Origin: a virus
UHGV virus genome: UHGV-1688525
Length of the DNA stretch: 10,903 bases
Direction: 5' to 3' (one strand)
In this document: positions 553-10,903 of the stretch, one piece after another
Numbering within the stretch: the first letter of the stretch is position 1
How the letters are laid out: each line of letters begins with the position of its first letter
Program-made: the position numbers and the translations under genes
The notes under the pieces: generated by a model
Database searches by the model: none
Told to the model about the DNA's origin: nothing
What the model saw: the letters and a program-made list of their open reading frames with translations, nothing else

Positions 553-890
553 CAGATCACCACTTCGTCAAACTGACACGAAAAATCGGTATAGGTGATA
601 TGTTCTGTCGCTGACCACGTTCGACACACCACTCTGATTTTTCTGTTAATACCCGGCGGGCGCCAAAAAAAAGATTTATAGCCTCCATGCCGAGCCAGAA
701 ACAGTTCAAATGAATTACGTTCATTCGCCTCAACCCTGAAATCACAGGTAAAAACACGCAGAGAATGATTAAGTCCGTTTGGGCTTCGTTGTTCATAACC
801 ATCGCCAAATCTTACAGTTTTTATCGATGGCTTATTTTCTGTTTTCATTCCATCCTCTGGTAACCAGTAAAATTCTTCCGTATTAGCCAC
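552..890 (-). CDS. M: Minor tail protein M (lambda gpM-like), 112 aa
   Basis: Motifs [28 protein letters not shown] and C-terminal FDEVVI match lambda gpM as recalled (VRFGDGYSQRAPAGLN, HGGWKSFLWTPP, FEQVVN). Position between the tape measure gene and L fits. GTG start at 890 has a strong SD (GGAGGA, 7-nt spacer); an alternative ATG at 848 would give 98 aa. Confidence 0.82.
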
Positions 891-3800
891 TTAACATTCC
901 TCCATCACGTCGCATATTTAACAGAGCGCCCTGCACCCGCTGATCAACCATCCCCATAAGTGCTTTTATTGCCTGAGGACCAATCTCTCCATTCTGGCCG
1001 TCATTTTGAATAGTGATTTGGTATACAGGGGCATAAGTAATATCTCTGCCTCCATTACCACTTTTACTATTAATAGCTCTGACACCAAGAGAACCATCGG
1101 AAGTTCGCGTTAATGGCATAATAGCTTCCGGTCCAGCCTCACCAAAAACACCAGCTCCTTTTGCAAAAGCAAAAAATTGCGGGGAGTCATAAATACCGTT
1201 CGAATATGTACTCAATGACGGAGACTCATAAACACCGCCCTTTGCATTCGGAATAAATTTACTAATAGCACTCCCGATAGTTCCTAAAATACCCCCAGAA
1301 GAACTGTTACTAATGCTGTCGAAAATCCCAGTAATTGAAGCCTTTAATGCAATTCGACTAAGATCTGAAATCACGGAAGTAGCGAAAGAACGAAAATTTG
1401 CCTTGCCTGTCGTGACAAAATCACCTAGCGCATCGGTCATCCCATCAAACATCTGAGTCGTGGTTGATTTTATTTGCGCACCGATATCCTTAGTGTCATC
1501 CAGCCAGTTATTGAATCCCTGGGAGGCACCACTAATCCAGTCTCCTGCCTGAATATCGAGCTGCTCGTTTTTCTGGCTGACAATTTCTTTTTCTCGCTCC
1601 AGAGCATCATTCAGAGCCTGCATTTTCTCCTGAAAAACATGATTTGACATTCCACGGGATTTATCTGCATAGTCACGTTCAAGTTGCAGACGCTGATTGT
1701 TATATTCACGTTCAATCCGCAGTAATTCCTGCTGGCGTTGCTGATTTTTATCGCCAACCCCATAACCAGCAATCTGAATATCATACCCCTGCTGACGATT
1801 ATCAATCGAAGCCTGCAATGAATCACGCCATGCGGCTATTTCGGCGGATTCTTTGATTAGCCTGTTATTTTTTTCAATCGCAACATTTTTCTCCATCAAC
1901 GCGGTTATTTCTTCCCGGTGTAAGAGAAGCGATTTCTGATCCTGGGTTAATTTCGATGACGGTCGTGACTCCAGGTCGGCAATCTGCTGACGCCACTTAA
2001 CCAGTTCCTGTTCAGAGGAACTTAATTTAACGGTCAATTCAGCTTGTGAACTTAGTAACGCATTCTGTTGATTCAGATGATCAATCATTCGTTGGGCAGC
2101 ATCATCCGAATAACCTTTCGCCTTTGGTTGCTTTGGATCTTTATAACGCTCATTTATTTGAGCGATAAGATTATTATATTCTTCCTTTGAATACTGATTC
2201 TTTAGCTTTTCCAGTTTTGCAAGTTCACTAGCTCTCTGCTGCTCCCGGGTCTGATATTGTTTTGAAAAAGCATCTGCTCTCTGTCTGAGTTCAATTCCTT
2301 CCTGTTGTCGCTTGTTGTAATCGTTTATTGATGAATTTAGTACGTCCTGAGCAATTTTTTCTGCTTGAAGTACGCCCAATTGCTGCTTTAATCGTGCCAG
2401 CTTTTTATTTTGAGCTCCGCCATCTCCAATGCCACCTAACCCGAAAACTCCGGGTCGGGTATTTTTTTCTATTTCATCAATTTGACGGAGAACATCTGAG
2501 ATTTTTTGATCAAGAGAGGCCTCACGGCCAATATCCAGCATGGAATCCCATGCCCATTTTGCGGAGTCTGCGACAGCTTTCCATGCAGTCTCAAGATAAC
2601 CAAGATTTTCTTTAATCTGGTTGGTGCGCTGGATCATTGAGGATGAGTATGCTTCTGTCGCAATGCGGGCGGCCTCCTGCTGGTTCCCTTCATCCTGTAG
2701 CGCCTTAATCTGGTTATAAGTCGCAAGTGTCAGAAAATGGTACTGATCATTAAGTTTTGATATAGCACTGACAGGATCCTTTGCAATTTCATTGAAGTCA
2801 TTAACCAGTTGTTCGGTTGATATTCCTGTTACTTCGCTCGTTTTTACTATCGCTGTCGTCACTTGCTCCAGCGAACTGCTCGCTACCTTTCCCGAACGCA
2901 CAAGCTGGTTTAATACTGCCGCCGCAGCGCCAGTTGTCGAATCAGCCGCATTCCCGGCACGTTGAGCTATATCGGCCAATTGCCCGCTGGTTGTCCCCAA
3001 CTGATTTCCGGTAAGAATAAGAGATTTATTAAATTCGTCCTGCTCCTGAGAGCCTTTATAGTAAGCCAGCCCTAAGACGCCAACGGCTGCTGCGGCCAGG
3101 GTAAAAGGATTAATTAATCCCAGCACATAAGAACCTACACCTTTGATCGCCGGGCCAATCCCACCGAACATATCTTTTAGCTGGCCGCCCTGCTGCATTA
3201 ACACCATAAATGGCGACTGACCAGTGGACAACCCAACAACAATATCCGTCATTTGTGCAGGCAACATGCGCATAGCAAAAGCCGTTTGTTTTGCCGACAT
3301 TCCGGTTTTGCTTAATTGCGATTGAGTAACCTCAAGCTCACTCCGCATAGCACGAAGTTTTCCAGAAAGCTCCTCATACATTTCAGGAGAAAGCATCCCC
3401 TTAGCTTTTGCTTCATTGAGCTGTTTCTGTTGTTCTACCAGACGATTAAAAGCAGTTCCGACAGGATCAAGTTGAGCAATCAGACGTTGCAAAGCAGCAA
3501 CCTGTTCATCATGTGCTTTTGCTGCTTCTCGCTCTGCCTGAGCCTCTCCGGTAAGCTCTCGCCGTGTTTCCTGTATTTTTCGGCTATAATTCTCAAACTG
3601 AGAACCATTTATTTTCCCGGATGCAAACGCAGCATTAAGTTCATCCTGCTGTTGTTCAAGATTTCTTAGCGCCGCAGCCAGAGGGTCGATCTTGTCCAGC
3701 ATTCTTTGAAAGACCTGAGCCTGCGCTTCCTGCTGGGCGGCAGCAAGTTTTCCGGCCCTCTCGGCTTCTCTCTGCGCTTGCGCAACCCCGCTCAATTCCT

Positions 3801-4116
3801 CTGTGGTTTCATTAAGTTTACGGACAAGAAATTCATATTCTTCTTTATCAATAAGCCCTTTATCGAAAAATTTCTTTAATTCAGAATAGCGTCGACCGAC
3901 AGTATCAATTGCGGCACCAACTGGATCAATAGCTGCTTTTAATTTTGCGAGCGCGTTCTTCTCATCTTCTGTTGCCTTAGTCACTTTCCCTGCGCTATTT
4001 GCAGCAGTTTCCCCAGCCTGCGTCATTTTGACTAATGAGGAGGCCAGATTGTCAGCATTATTTTTCGCTCCAGTGCTATCAATAATTATTGCGAGACGCG
4101 AGGTTTGCTCTGCCAT
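883..4116 (-). CDS. Tail tape measure protein, 1077 aa
   Basis: Single long ORF lying between the chaperone pair and M. N-terminal half is Ala/Gln/Glu-rich predicted coiled coil. Central hydrophobic glycine-rich segment ([22 protein letters not shown]...[14 protein letters not shown]). C-terminal region resembles the lambda gpH C-terminus ([20 protein letters not shown]...RDGGMLSG). ATG at 4116 is preceded by AGGAG. Confidence 0.9.
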
Positions 4117-4130
4117 TCATTAAAACTCCT

Positions 4131-4160
4131 GACAACAAAAAACCCACCGAAGTGGGTTTC
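4131..4160 (-). terminator. Intrinsic terminator-like hairpin on the minus-strand transcript, immediately upstream of the tape measure SD
   Basis: Minus-strand RNA reads AAACCCAC-UUCG-GUGGGUUU followed by UUUGUUGUC: an 8-bp stem, UUCG tetraloop and U-tract. Read directly from sequence; no folding energy computed. Confidence 0.5.
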
Positions 4161-4279
4161 AGGCGACATAATAGTAGATATAGCGATTACGAGGCCACGC
4201 AATGCTTTTCTCCAGGAGCATCATCGATTTAATTAAAGACACCATCACATCTCTGTAACAGAGTGTACGTAATTAACAA

Positions 4280-5037
4280 CTACACACACTGCTCCTGAAA
4301 ATACTGGTCATCCAGTGCAAAGATCACTGCTTCAAATTCATCGCGCTCAATCAATACCGGATGAGTGGCTAAATATTCATTTATCTCTGTCAGAGATAAA
4401 GGCAAAGGCACCCCAGTCATTCCAGCATAACGTCGGGCACGGGATATTACCGAATAGGCGTACAACAATTCCTTAAGCACCGGGTCTATTTCTGGTTCCG
4501 GTATCGGTGGCAACCTGAGTTTTTCTCGCTTCCATCTTGCCTTTTCACCCTTTTCTCCCCCGAACTCCGATAACCACCGCTGGGCGGCTATGGCTTTTTT
4601 ATCGTATCCTGCTTCTGCTGCTCTTTACCCTGGGCGATGCTGACTGCTTCTGCAAGGATCTGCCAGTACAACTCCGGATTCTGCTTAAGCAGCGCGATCC
4701 CTCGTTCTGGCGTATATTCCAGTGCAACCTCAACACCATCAACCAGTTCACCAACCCCTTTCCAGTCTTTCAGCAGATAACGAGCAGCATTATCAATGAG
4801 TAAATCATCAACAGAATCCACCTCGGAAACCTTTGCAATATCAAACTCCTTCGTTCCGACGTGCAAACTGGCATCCATTTTCTCAATGTGGCGACGGATT
4901 AATGCATTACGGGAGCGATACTGATCGTTATCGCTGCTTGCCACCAACAGTTTTAACCCGTCTACAGGTTTTAAGTCCTTCATTGGGGTAAACCAGCGTT
5001 CACCACCGATGATAATTTTCTGATTAAGAATAAACAT
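4280..5037 (-). CDS. Tail assembly chaperone GT-type fusion made by -1 programmed ribosomal frameshift; T-like extension is the 4280..4513 ORF
   Basis: The -1 frame after the heptamer A_AAA_AAG (4600..4594) is open with no stop and continues KKAIAAQRWLSEFGGEKGEKARWKREKLRLPPIPEPEIDPVLKELL... into the 4280..4513 ORF. That ORF has no ATG or SD of its own; its listed start is a TTG. Confidence 0.65.
4588..5037 (-). CDS. Tail assembly chaperone (lambda G-analogous), zero-frame product
   Basis: Sits directly upstream of the tape measure gene and downstream of the tube gene. ATG at 5037 has a GAGG SD 6 nt upstream (the track's ATG at 5049 has no SD). Ends with a slippery heptamer two codons before its TAG stop. 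Confidence 0.72.
   Translation of the reverse strand: MFILNQKIIIGGERWFTPMKDLKPVDGLKLLVASSDNDQYRSRNALIRRHIEKMDASLHVGTKEFDIAKVSEVDSVDDLLIDNAARYLLKDWKGVGELVDGVEVALEYTPERGIALLKQNPELYWQILAEAVSIAQGKEQQKQDTIKKP
4594..4600 (-). other. -1 frameshift slippery heptanucleotide A_AAA_AAG
   Basis: Minus-strand codons GAT ACG ATA AAA AAG CCA TAG; the X_XXY_YYZ motif is A_AAA_AAG, the same heptamer used by E. coli dnaX. Confidence 0.65.
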
Positions 5038-5058
5038 CCATAACCTCATTCAATGCGC

Positions 5059-5085
5059 CCCCCTGTAGTGCAGTACCACAGGGGG
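5059..5085. repeat. GC-rich perfect inverted repeat (8-bp stem, 11-nt loop) between the tube gene stop and the chaperone start
   Basis: Plus strand ccccctgt-agtgcagtacc-acaggggg. No U-tract follows on either strand, so it is not a classical intrinsic terminator. Confidence 0.45.
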
Positions 5086-5097
5086 AATAACGGAAAA

Positions 5098-6060
5098 TCA
5101 ACTAATCGCCTCAGCACTGGCTTTTGCGATCACGGCAGCCGGGGAGGCTTTTTTTCTGGTTATCGTAGGTGCTTCATCTGCTGCGGTAATGCTCAATTGA
5201 ACCTGGATAATGTCGGTATTACCCCCATCAGGCCATTCACCTGACACCTGAACCTTCGGGAAACTGAAAGTGTATGCCCCCTCTCCATTCGAAAGCGTGA
5301 AGCTGAACGGAACTGTTTCTCCAGTCAGTGTTTTACTCCAGATTTCCCACGCGGCTTTAGACCATGAAAGCGTCACCGTACCGGACGGTGTAAAAGTAGT
5401 CGGAATATTTGCTCCTGCATAAGGCGAGCCAGTCCCGATACAACGCTGTGTCTGGAGTTTGTTATCGAACTGAATATCAAAACTGTCGATACAAAAACCG
5501 TTACCTCCGGCAACACCATTCAGGCTTACTGCTGAAACCTCCTTAAACGAATAACGTAGCTTTCCTGCACTATCCACAGGTTCGCCTTTGATAAAATTCG
5601 TATCATCGGCCTTTGATTCCCAGTCCAGCCCGGCAAAGGTTACGGTCGCCGTAATATCGCCGTCGTTAGGGATCTGCATTTTCCATGAGCCAACCTGCGC
5701 TCCTCTGACAACAGAGGCAATTCCGACATCGGACGCATAGGTCGCCAGAGAAAATGTTATTCGCTCATTCCCCATTGTCAGAGAATCACCTGACCATTCC
5801 GCGCCGAAACAGGATGCAAGAAAATCATCATGTTGACCCCAGCGAAATTTGGTACCAACATCACCGCCAACATCCACAGTGCCAGGCGTCGCCCCCTGAG
5901 CCATCCGGGAGCCACCAATCTCATTATTTTCGCCTTTATTCTGGGTGGGTTTTACTCCCCAGCTTGTGCGTTTTAATAAACTCCAGTCACCACTTGCTGG
6001 TGTGGCGCCTGCAACTGTCTCCCGGATAAATGCCGAGATAACCTTTGCACCTGAACTCAC
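5098..6060 (-). CDS. Major tail (tube) protein, 320 aa
   Basis: Synteny: sits between the tail terminator-like gene and the chaperone pair. GTG start at 6060 has a strong SD (GGAGG, 5-nt spacer). No recognisable similarity to lambda gpV as recalled, so the call is positional. Confidence 0.62.
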   Translation of the reverse strand: MSSGAKVISAFIRETVAGATPASGDWSLLKRTSWGVKPTQNKGENNEIGGSRMAQGATPGTVDVGGDVGTKFRWGQHDDFLASCFGAEWSGDSLTMGNERITFSLATYASDVGIASVVRGAQVGSWKMQIPNDGDITATVTFAGLDWESKADDTNFIKGEPVDSAGKLRYSFKEVSAVSLNGVAGGNGFCIDSFDIQFDNKLQTQRCIGTGSPYAGANIPTTFTPSGTVTLSWSKAAWEIWSKTLTGETVPFSFTLSNGEGAYTFSFPKVQVSGEWPDGGNTDIIQVQLSITAADEAPTITRKKASPAAVIAKASAEAIS

Positions 6061-7905: not shown

Positions 7906-9045
7906 TTAACCAAGAATCAGACAACCATGTGCCGGTTTCACTGACGAAACACCCCATGCCAGTCCAACTTCATAGCGCACCTGGCGATACTGACGATACA
8001 GTGCAATCTGGAACGTAATCCCTGAAATCGGGTCCGTAACATTCATTACATCATCAGCATTATCGCCACCTTCCGGCATTGCCGGAGTACGGGATGCCAG
8101 CAGAAACGCGTTGCGATCAAACGCCATATTTGCAGTAAAGGAGCCAACAACTGTGATTGCAGTATCATCGGCCAGATCCTGACGCAGTCCCGGTGCTGCA
8201 AGAGTAATCAGATTGCTGGTCGCTGCTGCCACAACATACTGATTCGGATCGCCAGCGAACGTAACAATCTGACCTGCAGAAATACTCCCCGAACCTGTAT
8301 CAATGGAAATAAGAACATCGCCTTCTTTTTTCTCGCCATTCACGAGATAACCAGTTGCTGCAACCTTTGGCGCTCGTTTTACACCTGCCGAACTGTGAAT
8401 ATTGAATCCCTCCAGACGCCCCAACACGCCCTCACGCAGTAGCTGTTCAGTGCCGGATTCATTCACTTTAAACAATACAGACTGTTTTCCGCGCAAATTA
8501 GCAATGGCAGTGGAACCAAGCACCATCTGCAGATCTGTTGTCGGTGCGCCGTTATCCTCCAGAACCTGACGAGCCAGAGCAGCATCAGAAAGATCATCTT
8601 TAACACCAAACGGCGTTGTCCCTGCGGTTCCCACGGCGCGGGAAGCACCGAAATACAACACACCAAGATCAGCCTCAACCTCGTTTGCAAGGGCGCGAAA
8701 AGCCTGCTTGAACTGATCAGCCAGAATGGTGTTGTAAGTCCCTGAAGGGCCAAGAGCCAGTTGTTCTTCACCATTCCATTTAACCGGCGCCATTTTGGAT
8801 TTAGTAATTTTTACATCAACAGTGCCAATATTTTGATCACCGGTATTCGGAGCTGACGGCCCCGGTACGATATCTTCGGTTTTCGCCTCAGGCGCAACTG
8901 GCGCGGTTACCGTCTGATCTTTTGCTGCGGCGTCAGCTTTTGCGTTTTTTGCTACCGCAGGGATAAAACCTACCTGCTCACGGGATACAACATCCAGGGC
9001 GGTGTAAATAGTCGGGATCAACCCGGTCAGGGTATTTCCAGCCAT
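7906..9045 (-). CDS. Major capsid protein, about 379 aa from ATG 9045
   Basis: Largest head ORF, downstream of the scaffold and followed by a terminator hairpin. The track's 9138 start is a TTG; the first ATG (9045, MAGNTLTGLIP...) has an AAGGA SD upstream. Family not verified by search. Confidence 0.78.
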   Translation of the reverse strand: MAGNTLTGLIPTIYTALDVVSREQVGFIPAVAKNAKADAAAKDQTVTAPVAPEAKTEDIVPGPSAPNTGDQNIGTVDVKITKSKMAPVKWNGEEQLALGPSGTYNTILADQFKQAFRALANEVEADLGVLYFGASRAVGTAGTTPFGVKDDLSDAALARQVLEDNGAPTTDLQMVLGSTAIANLRGKQSVLFKVNESGTEQLLREGVLGRLEGFNIHSSAGVKRAPKVAATGYLVNGEKKEGDVLISIDTGSGSISAGQIVTFAGDPNQYVVAAATSNLITLAAPGLRQDLADDTAITVVGSFTANMAFDRNAFLLASRTPAMPEGGDNADDVMNVTDPISGITFQIALYRQYRQVRYEVGLAWGVSSVKPAHGCLILG

Positions 9046-9143
9046 AATTAAATATTCCTTAAAAATTTGCGTAATTGTGAATGGATTGAGTAGTGAGCTA
9101 TCCAGCCCTGACACCAACTCCCATCCGGAAGCTGGCAAATGTA

Positions 9144-10012: not shown

Positions 10013-10903
<891 letters not shown>

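What the first reader, a model, noticed from the sequence alone, without database searches (positions are those of the whole stretch)
4280..5037. Programmed -1 frameshift (A_AAA_AAG) joins the tail chaperone to a T-like extension
The chaperone ORF ends two codons after a canonical slippery heptamer (4600..4594). The -1 frame is open from that point into the 4280..4513 ORF, which has no ATG or SD of its own. This is the conserved G/GT recoding arrangement of long-tailed phages and explains the otherwise orphan 77-aa ORF. It is expected biology rather than novelty, but a sequence-only annotation will miss it.
Basis: partly seen in the sequence, partly recalled or inferred. Interest (0 to 1): 0.45.

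Follow-up and report, generated by a model that had tools for sequence, protein, structure and literature searches.

The report
Phage tail chaperone -1 frameshift site
A Rac-type E. coli prophage carries the usual long-tailed-phage arrangement in which some ribosomes are predicted to slip back one base at A_AAA_AAG near the end of the tail-chaperone gene (YdaY family) and make a longer fusion protein; the signal is real and conserved but ordinary biology, and the genome records I opened do not annotate it.

Summary
On the minus strand, the 149-aa ORF 5037..4588 lies between the tail-tube and tape-measure genes. It carries A_AAA_AAG at 4600..4594 in X_XXY_YYZ phase, followed by CCA and a TAG stop. 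The -1 frame is open only from 4624 and runs 104 codons from the heptamer to a stop at 4282..4280.

The heptamer alone is not rarer than chance. The comparative evidence is what decides it. All 53 distinct relatives (E. coli to Tatumella and Pantoea) have an in-phase slippery heptamer at the same codon. It is either A_AAA_AAG or G_GGA_AAG (lambda's own), never a mixture. The zero-frame stop wanders from 7 to 112 nt downstream, while the -1 extension stays at 100-119 codons.

The 26 codons right after the heptamer lie upstream of any possible internal start. They are under purifying selection only in the -1 frame (pN/pS 0.22, against 1.3 in the other two frames). The fused product matches PHROG 313 (tail assembly chaperone) colinearly.

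No conserved stimulatory RNA structure was found. There is no sequence homology to lambda G or T.

Verdict: this is a G/GT-type programmed -1 frameshift in the YdaY chaperone family. It is inferred, not shown experimentally, and it is a new member of a well-known kind. Interest is low.

The parts
4588..5037 (-). G-like tail assembly chaperone ORF (YdaY family), 149 aa, zero-frame product. ATG 5037, stop TAG 4590..4588.
4594..4600 (-). Slippery heptamer A_AAA_AAG in X_XXY_YYZ phase of the G frame. Proposed site of tandem -1 tRNA slippage.
   Evidence: Same codon position in all 53 distinct relatives, as A_AAA_AAG or G_GGA_AAG.
4588..4624 (-). G/T overlap: the only stretch where both the G frame and the -1 frame are open. 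The -1 frame has a TAA stop at 4627..4625 and the G frame a TAG stop at 4590..4588.
   Evidence: the -1 frame translation shows '*' just upstream...HRPG*RAAEAGYDKKAIAAQ.
4280..4594 (-). T-like -1 frame extension: 104 codons (AIAAQRWLSEFGGEKGEKARW...DDQYFQEQCV) plus stop TAG 4282..4280. Predicted GT fusion = 148 G-frame codons (5037..4594) + 104 codons = 252 aa.
   Evidence: Protein alignment A5 has invariant residues from codon 4 onward. pN/pS 0.22 in this frame for the first 26 codons, against 1.31 and 1.38 in the other frames. PHROG 1189 E=1.7e-36, and the fusion covers positions 20-246 of the 258-position PHROG 313 profile in one stretch. Weak Pfam Phage_TAC_18 hit, 20.4 bits against a cut-off of 27, seen in 14 of 17 relatives.
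4567..4593 (-). Local hairpin directly 3' of the heptamer (11 bp, loop CAGC). Probably not a conserved stimulator.
   Evidence: MFE about -14 kcal/mol, z = -0.6 to -1.35 against shuffles. No consensus structure across 19 relatives, RNAalifold -0.81 kcal/mol. By my reading of the sequences, two stem positions are mismatched in the L062 lineage.
4607..4610 (-). SD-like AGGA 6 nt upstream of the heptamer. A possible weak upstream stimulator, confounded by coding (Gln-Asp/Glu).
   Evidence: Sequence. Present in most but not all relatives (absent in L091 and L096). Not tested further.
5098..6060 (-). Tail tube (major tail) gene, upstream neighbour.
   Evidence: Annotated 'phage tail tube protein' in the identical RefSeq record.
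883..4116 (-). Tape measure protein gene (1077 aa), downstream neighbour.
4139..4160 (-). Terminator-like hairpin GAAACCCAC-TTCG-GTGGGTTTT followed by a T-run. It lies in the 163-nt gap between the T stop and the tape-measure start. Context only, not part of the recoding signal.
   Evidence: Analogous hairpins of different sequence occur after T in several relatives.

Best explanation
The region encodes the tail assembly chaperone pair of a Rac-type siphovirus prophage, expressed by programmed -1 ribosomal frameshifting.

Most ribosomes translate 5037..4588 and terminate at TAG, giving a 149-aa G-like chaperone (YdaY family). A minority slip at A_AAA_AAG (4600..4594). The P-site tRNA on AAA and the A-site tRNA-Lys on AAG both re-pair one base back. 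These ribosomes then read GCC ATA GCC... in the -1 frame for 104 more codons. The result is a 252-aa GT-like fusion (...QDTIKK|AIAAQRWLSEF...).

By analogy with lambda, the shared G part would coat the tape measure protein and the T part would recruit the tail-tube protein. Neither would end up in the virion, and the slip frequency would set a fixed G:GT ratio.

Shown here:
- the sequence anatomy;
- its conservation;
- coding selection in the -1 frame immediately after the heptamer;
- family assignment of both parts.

Inferred:
- that slippage actually occurs, and its level. It is probably low, a few per cent or less, because no conserved stimulator was found;
- the protein partners.
For: 1. 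Anatomy. The heptamer is in phase, the overlap is 37 nt, and the -1 extension is 104 codons. The pair sits between the tube and tape-measure genes.

2. Conservation. 95 loci (53 distinct) from IMG/VR and GTDB genomes all carry an in-phase heptamer at the homologous codon: A_AAA_AAG in 48 distinct sequences and G_GGA_AAG in 5. There are no mixed forms. The G-frame stop lies 7, 10, 28, 82 or 112 nt after the heptamer start, and the -1 extension is 100-119 codons.

3. Equivalence of the two heptamers. Published E. coli reporter data give 0.29% and 0.28% slippage without a stimulator, 4.3% and 3.8% with the IS911 stimulator, and 39% and 43% with the IS3 stimulator. A_AAA_AAG is also strongly avoided in this phase in E. 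coli genes, z = -10.1 (PMC4066793 Table S3).

4. Switch of coding frame. Variable sites fall at G-frame third positions up to about nt 420 of the ORF and at -1 frame third positions after the heptamer at nt 437. For the 26 codons after the heptamer, pooled pN/pS is 0.22 in the -1 frame, 1.31 in the G frame and 1.38 in the +1 frame. A4, Q5, W7, G13, G16, W21 and L26 of the extension are invariant, and all lie upstream of the first start-like codon.

5. Family assignment. The fused sequence matches PHROG 313 'tail assembly chaperone' in one colinear stretch (positions 20-246 of 258), at 174 bits against 159 for G alone.

6. Distant relatives. Klebsiella, Erwinia, Pseudomonas and Acinetobacter phages at 32-66% identity match the fusion in two pieces. 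The -1 relation of the two frames was confirmed directly for Acba_3, Aurca01 and Gungnir39.

7. Transcriptional slippage is unlikely. The G_GGA_AAG variants have only an A3 run.
Against: - There is no experimental evidence for the trans-frame protein in this family.
- No conserved stimulatory structure exists. The local hairpin is not significant and not conserved. The bare heptamer gave only about 0.3% slippage in reporters, so the level here is unknown.
- There is no detectable sequence homology to lambda G or T: hhalign probability 0.1-0.2% and no Pfam PF06894 or PF06223 hit. The functional roles of the G and T parts rest on analogy and position.
- 3 of 98 loci have premature stops in the T frame (L037, L039, L057).
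- In this particular genome an IS3 element sits in the head module. The prophage may no longer assemble virions, so the signal may be intact but idle.
- The pairwise pN/pS comparisons are not phylogenetically independent.
Confidence: 0.9

Rival explanations
1. T is an independent small gene translated from its own start (TTG 4513, GTG 4480 or TTG 4465). The heptamer is incidental.
For: Start-like codons exist in the T frame. TTG 4465 has AAGGA 4 nt upstream, duplex -6.1 kcal/mol. Gene callers do call short T ORFs of 60-138 aa.
Against: The 27 codons upstream of TTG 4513 are conserved as protein in the -1 frame and under purifying selection there only. The called starts differ from record to record. 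TTG 4465 is not conserved: relatives read E-I-L rather than E-L-L at that position. The first ATG is codon 59. The in-phase heptamer is kept in every relative, and changes only to another slippery heptamer.
Confidence: 0.04
2. This is a decayed gene. A once-continuous chaperone ORF was broken by a 1-nt indel in the A run (or by a sequencing error), so the two-frame layout is damage rather than design.
For: The host prophage carries an IS3 insertion. Homopolymer runs are indel-prone. One database protein, P0001 (240 aa), is an in-frame G-T fusion.
Against: The same two-frame layout occurs in all 53 distinct relatives across many genera and in isolated phages. P0001's sequence is what a 35-nt deletion between two GCAGAAGCAG repeats would give, not a change in the length of the A run (repeat coordinates). 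The G_GGA_AAG variants have no homopolymer to blame.
Confidence: 0.02
3. The longer product arises by transcriptional slippage of RNA polymerase on the A6 run, not by ribosomal slippage.
For: A-runs can cause transcript realignment. PMC3711429 discusses poly-A sites used in this way.
Against: The known cases cited there use runs longer than 7 A, and this run has 6. Relatives replace the site with G_GGA_AAG (A3 only) while keeping the arrangement. The exact X_XXY_YYZ phase is conserved, which matters for ribosomes and not for polymerase.
Confidence: 0.03

Closest known systems
Bacteriophage lambda G/GT (Levin, Hendrix & Casjens 1993; Xu, Hendrix & Duda 2004, 2013, 2014; as summarised in PMC5009743)
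   Same: Two overlapping ORFs lie between the major tail gene and the tape-measure gene. The downstream ORF is in the -1 frame with no start of its own. The slippery heptamer sits near the end of G. Some relatives of this locus use lambda's exact heptamer, G_GGA_AAG. No conserved RNA stimulator was found in this family.
   Different: No detectable sequence similarity of either part to lambda G or T. The heptamer here is A_AAA_AAG. The T extension is shorter: 104 aa, against a 144-aa annotated lambda T ORF. A 163-nt gap with a terminator-like hairpin separates T from the tape-measure gene, whereas lambda T overlaps H.
E. coli O157 Sakai prophage Sp9 tail assembly chaperone ECs1801 (cluster A_AAA_AAG_25 of Sharma et al. 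2014, PMC4066793; marked 'true')
   Same: Same heptamer, A_AAA_AAG, placed at the very end of the chaperone ORF (AGA AAA AAG TAG). The frameshift product is longer than the zero-frame product. It is an E. coli prophage.
   Different: Unrelated protein family: hhalign probability 0.2% against the YdaY-family profile. The YdaY family is not among the five prophage clusters of that survey.
HK97 tail assembly chaperone (PDB 2OB9) and other structurally characterised tail assembly chaperones
E. coli dnaX gamma/tau frameshift
   Same: Identical heptamer A_AAA_AAG, decoded by the same tRNA-Lys (PMC3711429).
   Different: dnaX has an upstream SD-like element and a strong downstream hairpin, gives about 50% slippage, and its frameshift product is the shorter one. 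Here there is no conserved hairpin, only a doubtful AGGA 6 nt upstream, and the frameshift product is the longer one.

Membership tests
G/GT-type tail assembly chaperone with programmed -1 frameshift (Xu, Hendrix & Duda 2004 definition) | Pair of overlapping ORFs located between the major tail (tube) gene and the tape-measure gene | tested here: met
   Tube 6060..5098, G 5037..4588, T frame to 4280, tape measure 4116..883.
G/GT-type tail assembly chaperone with programmed -1 frameshift (Xu, Hendrix & Duda 2004 definition) | Downstream ORF in the -1 frame relative to the upstream ORF, without a credible initiation site of its own | tested here: met
   The frame relation was checked. There is no ATG before codon 59, SD matches are weak, and the starts are not conserved.
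G/GT-type tail assembly chaperone with programmed -1 frameshift (Xu, Hendrix & Duda 2004 definition) | Slippery X_XXY_YYZ heptamer in zero-frame phase inside the overlap | tested here: met
   A_AAA_AAG at 4600..4594, within the 37-nt overlap 4624..4588.
G/GT-type tail assembly chaperone with programmed -1 frameshift (Xu, Hendrix & Duda 2004 definition) | Slippery site and two-frame layout conserved among diverged relatives | tested here: met
   53 of 53 distinct relatives carry A_AAA_AAG or G_GGA_AAG at the same codon. -1 frame pN/pS is 0.22.
G/GT-type tail assembly chaperone with programmed -1 frameshift (Xu, Hendrix & Duda 2004 definition) | Both G and the GT fusion are made, at a fixed low ratio | not testable with these tools
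   Needs protein-level detection or a frameshift reporter.
G/GT-type tail assembly chaperone with programmed -1 frameshift (Xu, Hendrix & Duda 2004 definition) | G part binds the tape measure, T part binds the tube protein; both are needed for tail assembly and absent from virions | not testable with these tools
   Inferred from lambda (PMC5009743).
Lambda gpG / gpT sequence families (Pfam PF06894, PF06223) | Significant match to the family profile or to lambda G or T | tested here: not met
   No Pfam hit to these families. hhalign probability 0.1-0.2% against lambda T and G.
PHROG 313, tail assembly chaperone | Significant profile match | tested here: met
   G alone E=3e-46. The fusion gives E=8.9e-51 and covers profile positions 20-246 of 258 in one stretch.
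Pfam Phage_TAC_18 (PF23812), for the T segment | Score above the gathering threshold (27 bits) | tested here: inconclusive
   20.4 bits, E=5.8e-4, profile positions 12-78 of 79. 14 of 17 relatives match weakly.
Tail assembly chaperone fold (HK97 chaperone, PDB 2OB9) | Clear structural similarity of the G domain | tested here: inconclusive
dnaX-type stimulated A_AAA_AAG frameshift | Conserved downstream stem-loop and upstream SD-like stimulator | tested here: not met
   The hairpin is not significant and not conserved. AGGA 6 nt upstream is only partly conserved.

The most novel reading that the evidence does not exclude
Two readings are not excluded.

(a) In this chaperone family only the A-site tetramer A_AAG is strictly required. 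At the homologous junction, Erwinia phage Gungnir39 has C_GCA_AAG and Pseudomonas phage Aurca01 has G_GAA_AAG. GT synthesis there would depend on single-tRNA-Lys slippage without P-site re-pairing, which implies that very low GT levels suffice for tail assembly.

(b) The hairpin plus T-run that recurs just after the T stop, in unrelated sequence forms, may be a functional attenuator or mRNA-stability element. It would lower tape-measure expression relative to the tube and chaperone genes. The T|tape-measure junction also appears to be a preferred insertion site for small accessory genes.
Probability: 0.2. Interest if true: 0.35.

Novelty: new member of a known kind. Interest (0 to 1): 0.2.

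Why it matters
The main value is for annotation.
- It identifies YdaY, an unexplained Rac-prophage protein name propagated through more than a thousand E. coli genomes, as the G-like tail assembly chaperone of Rac-type phages.
- It assigns the orphan ORF downstream of YdaY as its frameshift-encoded T extension.
- It corrects the G start to ATG 5037. PGAP calls a 119-aa protein in this genome; I assume, without checking, that this follows the truncated K-12 ydaY.
- The K-12-like Rac remnants in the set (L088, L089) still carry the heptamer and an intact 104-codon T frame.

The clean A_AAA_AAG to G_GGA_AAG replacement within one family is a neat natural illustration that the two heptamers are interchangeable in enterobacteria. 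It adds nothing conceptually new to recoding or tail assembly.

Tried and rejected
- Downstream stimulatory RNA. The 27-nt hairpin at 4593..4567 folds at about -14 kcal/mol but is no better than shuffles (z -0.6 to -1.35). RNAalifold on 19 diverse relatives gives essentially no consensus structure (-0.81 kcal/mol). I checked an apparent compensatory change in the L062 lineage by hand. The changed bases are not partners, so it weakens the stem rather than preserving it.
- Rfam scan of 3900..5300 at E<=1: nothing.
- Homology to lambda G and T, and to the Sakai Sp9 chaperone ECs1801: none by hhalign.
- PDB sequence search with the G profile: nothing meaningful.
- NCBIfam: no hits.
- AlphaFold on the natural fusion P0001 with a mixed alignment: pLDDT 57.5 and about 50 over the T part, too poor for fold search. 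The T fold therefore stays untested.
- Literature: a full-text search for 'ydaY' with 'frameshift' returned two papers whose titles and abstracts do not concern this recoding; I did not open them. I could not read Xu et al. 2004, so I cannot say whether Rac-type prophages were in their survey.
- Heptamer enrichment in the window: not significant. The two other minus-strand AAAAAAG (5154..5148 and 8331..8325) are in AAA_AAA_G phase and are not candidates.

Full report
**What the window is**

The 1.2 kb around the finding is 100% identical to the chromosome of E. coli 2009C-3133 (NZ_CP013025.1). It is 95-99% identical to sequence in most of the roughly 1,070 other complete E. coli genomes with a match, including the Rac remnant of K-12, where the gene is called ydaY. 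It is also 98% identical to ten GenBank phage records.

In 2009C-3133 the element is a nearly complete Rac-type prophage carrying recE, kilR, ydaT/U/V, trkG, terminase, portal, capsid, tail genes and tail fibres. A cdtABC operon lies next to the fibre genes, and an IS3 element is inserted in the head module. All genes of the window run on the minus strand: capsid 9138..7906, tail tube 6060..5098, the finding, then the tape-measure gene 4116..883.

**Checking the observation**

- The ORF 5037..4588 ends ...ACG ATA AAA AAG CCA TAG. AAAAAAG at 4600..4594 is therefore in exact X_XXY_YYZ phase, and the stop is the second codon after it.
- The -1 frame has a TAA at 4627..4625 and is then open. From the heptamer's last base it reads GCC ATA GCC GCC CAG... 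for 104 codons to TAG 4282..4280. This is in frame with the 77-aa ORF 4280..4513.
- The two frames are both open for only 37 nt, and the heptamer is the only slippery motif in that stretch.
- The heptamer as a string is not enriched: 5 found against 4.0 expected. On its own it proves nothing.
- A 104-codon open frame has a probability of roughly 0.007 in random sequence (my arithmetic).
- Start-like codons exist in the T frame (TTG 4513, GTG 4480, TTG 4465, ATG 4420), but with weak or badly spaced Shine-Dalgarno matches.

**Comparative evidence**

I collected 80 IMG/VR loci and 17 loci from GTDB species genomes. The genera are Escherichia, Shigella, Citrobacter, Raoultella, Siccibacter, Scandinavium, Dryocola, Pantoea and Tatumella.

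- 95 loci (53 distinct sequences) have an in-phase slippery heptamer at the homologous codon, followed by a -1 extension of at least 95 codons.
- Three loci have the heptamer but premature stops in the T frame, and one short contig was not resolved.
- The heptamer is A_AAA_AAG in 48 distinct sequences and G_GGA_AAG in 5. G_GGA_AAG is the lambda G/GT heptamer. No half-changed form such as G_AAA_AAG occurs.
- In the window the X base is supplied by ATA. This is a rare Ile codon in E. coli (from established knowledge, not tested here).
- The G-frame stop lies 7, 10, 28, 82 or 112 nt after the heptamer start. The G-frame tails after ...KKP are dissimilar low-complexity strings.
- The -1 extension stays at 100-119 codons and aligns from its first residues.

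Published reporter measurements in E. coli show that the two heptamers are equivalent. Slippage is 0.29% and 0.28% without a stimulator, 4.3% and 3.8% with the IS911 stimulator, and 39% and 43% with the IS3 stimulator. A_AAA_AAG is also strongly avoided in this phase in E. coli genes, z = -10.1 (PMC4066793 Table S3).

**Coding signal**

Variable alignment columns fall on third positions of the G frame up to about nt 420 of the ORF. After the heptamer at nt 437 they fall on third positions of the -1 frame.

I ran Nei-Gojobori-type counts on the 26 codons directly after the heptamer, upstream of the first start-like codon. These compare the window with 29 relatives of 36-93% G identity:

| Frame | pN | pS | pN/pS |
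|---|---|---|---|
| -1 (T) | 0.168 | 0.777 | 0.22 |
| 0 (G) | 0.305 | 0.232 | 1.31 |
| +1 | 0.321 | 0.232 | 1.38 |

. The pairs are not independent, but every single comparison points the same way. Residues A4, Q5, W7, G13, G16, W21 and L26 of the extension are invariant in 17 diverse sequences. So this stretch is translated in the -1 frame, and that cannot come from an internal start.

**Protein families**

- G matches PHROG 313 'tail assembly chaperone' at E=3e-46.
- The T segment matches PHROG 1189 (unknown function) at E=1.7e-36.
- The conceptual 252-aa fusion matches PHROG 313 in one colinear stretch, positions 20-246 of a 258-position profile, at 174 bits against 159 for G alone.
- Pfam gives only a sub-threshold Phage_TAC_18 hit on T (20.4 bits against a cut-off of 27), repeated in 14 of 17 relatives.
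- NCBIfam gives nothing.
- Database homologues of G carry a precomputed PF27119, which is not in the local Pfam copy. They are nearly all named 'hypothetical protein' or 'YdaY'.
- T-frame ORFs appear as hypothetical proteins of 60-138 aa with inconsistent starts and no Pfam domain.
- One protein, P0001 (240 aa), is a natural in-frame fusion. Its sequence is what a 35-nt deletion between two GCAGAAGCAG repeats would give, not a change in the A run (repeat coordinates).
- Neither part resembles lambda G or T, nor the Sakai Sp9 chaperone ECs1801, which uses the same heptamer.

**More distant relatives**

A tblastn search of the fusion against 50,697 phage records finds 47 records. The matches to Klebsiella, Erwinia, Pseudomonas and Acinetobacter phages are at 32-66% identity and come in two pieces. 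Direct reading of three of them confirms that the two parts are in G and -1 frames.

The records I opened annotate two separate ORFs or only G, never a joined CDS. At the junction:
- Acinetobacter phage Acba_3 has G_GGA_AAG.
- Erwinia phage Gungnir39 has C_GCA_AAG.
- Pseudomonas phage Aurca01 has G_GAA_AAG.

Beyond the close family, only the A-site A_AAG is invariant.

**Stimulators**

- A hairpin starts directly after the heptamer (4593..4567, about -14 kcal/mol). It is not better than shuffled sequence and is not conserved.
- Rfam finds nothing.
- An AGGA lies 6 nt upstream and is present in most but not all relatives. It cannot be separated from the Gln-Asp/Glu coding.
- I therefore expect a low frameshift level, as in lambda, where the G:GT ratio is about 30:1 (PMC5009743). 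This is inference.

**Rivals**

- An independent T gene is contradicted by the conserved, selected codons upstream of every candidate start.
- Gene decay is contradicted by the universality of the layout and by the G_GGA_AAG variants.
- Transcriptional slippage is contradicted by the short A run, by its replacement with A3, and by the conserved ribosomal phase.

**Verdict**

This is a G/GT-type programmed -1 frameshift in the YdaY family of tail assembly chaperones. It is well supported by sequence and comparative evidence and unproven at the protein level. It works like lambda G/GT and is a member of the positional and functional class, but not of lambda's sequence families.

I found no record or paper that states it for this family. 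The five prophage clusters of Sharma et al. 2014 do not include it. The phenomenon itself is textbook, so interest is low.

Noticed in passing
window 4139..4160 (-), within the gap 4117..4279: A terminator-like hairpin (GAAACCCAC TTCG GTGGGTTTT plus a T-run) sits between the T stop and the tape-measure start. Relatives with unrelated intergenic sequence also have a GC hairpin plus T-run right after T (L070, L084, L094 types, and L006). It could be an attenuator or mRNA-stability element inside the late operon.
   Followed up: partly
L075, L078, L080, L086, L090, L093, L095: the first 200-400 nt after the T stop: In several relatives, small ORFs that look like lipoprotein or membrane proteins (for example MKKMIVVAFVVLLAGC...) are inserted between T and the tape-measure gene. 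This junction appears to be a hot-spot for accessory-gene ('moron') insertion.
   Followed up: no
window 4609..4653 (-); protein P0001: Two 10-nt direct repeats GCAGAAGCAG lie at 4653..4644 and 4618..4609. One E. coli database protein (P0001, 240 aa) has the sequence expected from a 35-nt deletion between them, which fuses G to T in frame. It may be a natural 'GT-only' mutant or an assembly artefact.
   Followed up: partly
L103 (Erwinia phage Gungnir39) about 1985..1995; L102 (Pseudomonas phage Aurca01) about 1880..1890: At the homologous G/T junction these phages have non-canonical heptamers, C_GCA_AAG and G_GAA_AAG. Only the A-site A_AAG is kept, which suggests single-tRNA slippage may suffice.
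   Followed up: partly
window 4588..5049 (-): PGAP annotates this gene in the identical RefSeq genome as a 119-aa hypothetical protein and does not annotate T at all. I assume the 119-aa call follows the truncated K-12 ydaY, but did not check this. The conserved start is ATG 5037, where M1 is invariant in 67 homologues. Some gene callers use ATG 5049.
   Followed up: yes
window 5148..5154 (-) and 8325..8331 (-): [quoted passage not shown] Both are in AAA_AAA_G phase, not X_XXY_YYZ, so they are not -1 frameshift candidates.
   Followed up: partly
window about 10013..10903 (-): The upstream end of the window holds a ParB/Srx gene fragment (10013..10111) and the 3' part of an IS3-family transposase inserted in the prophage head module. 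The IS3 element's own annotated frameshift pseudoknot lies just outside the window. The prophage may be assembly-defective in this strain.
   Followed up: partly
L054-type relatives, 30 nt upstream of the main heptamer (homologous to window 4630..4624): Some close relatives have GGA instead of GGT here. This creates a second in-phase heptamer, G_GGA_AAA, and removes the -1 frame TAA, so the overlap is longer. In the window this site reads G_GGT_AAA and is not slippery.
   Followed up: no
L104 102..2202 (NZ_CP013025.1 4990101..4992201): A cytolethal distending toxin operon (cdtABC) lies about 900 bp beyond the tail-fibre assembly gene, as likely cargo at the end of this Rac-type prophage.
   Followed up: no
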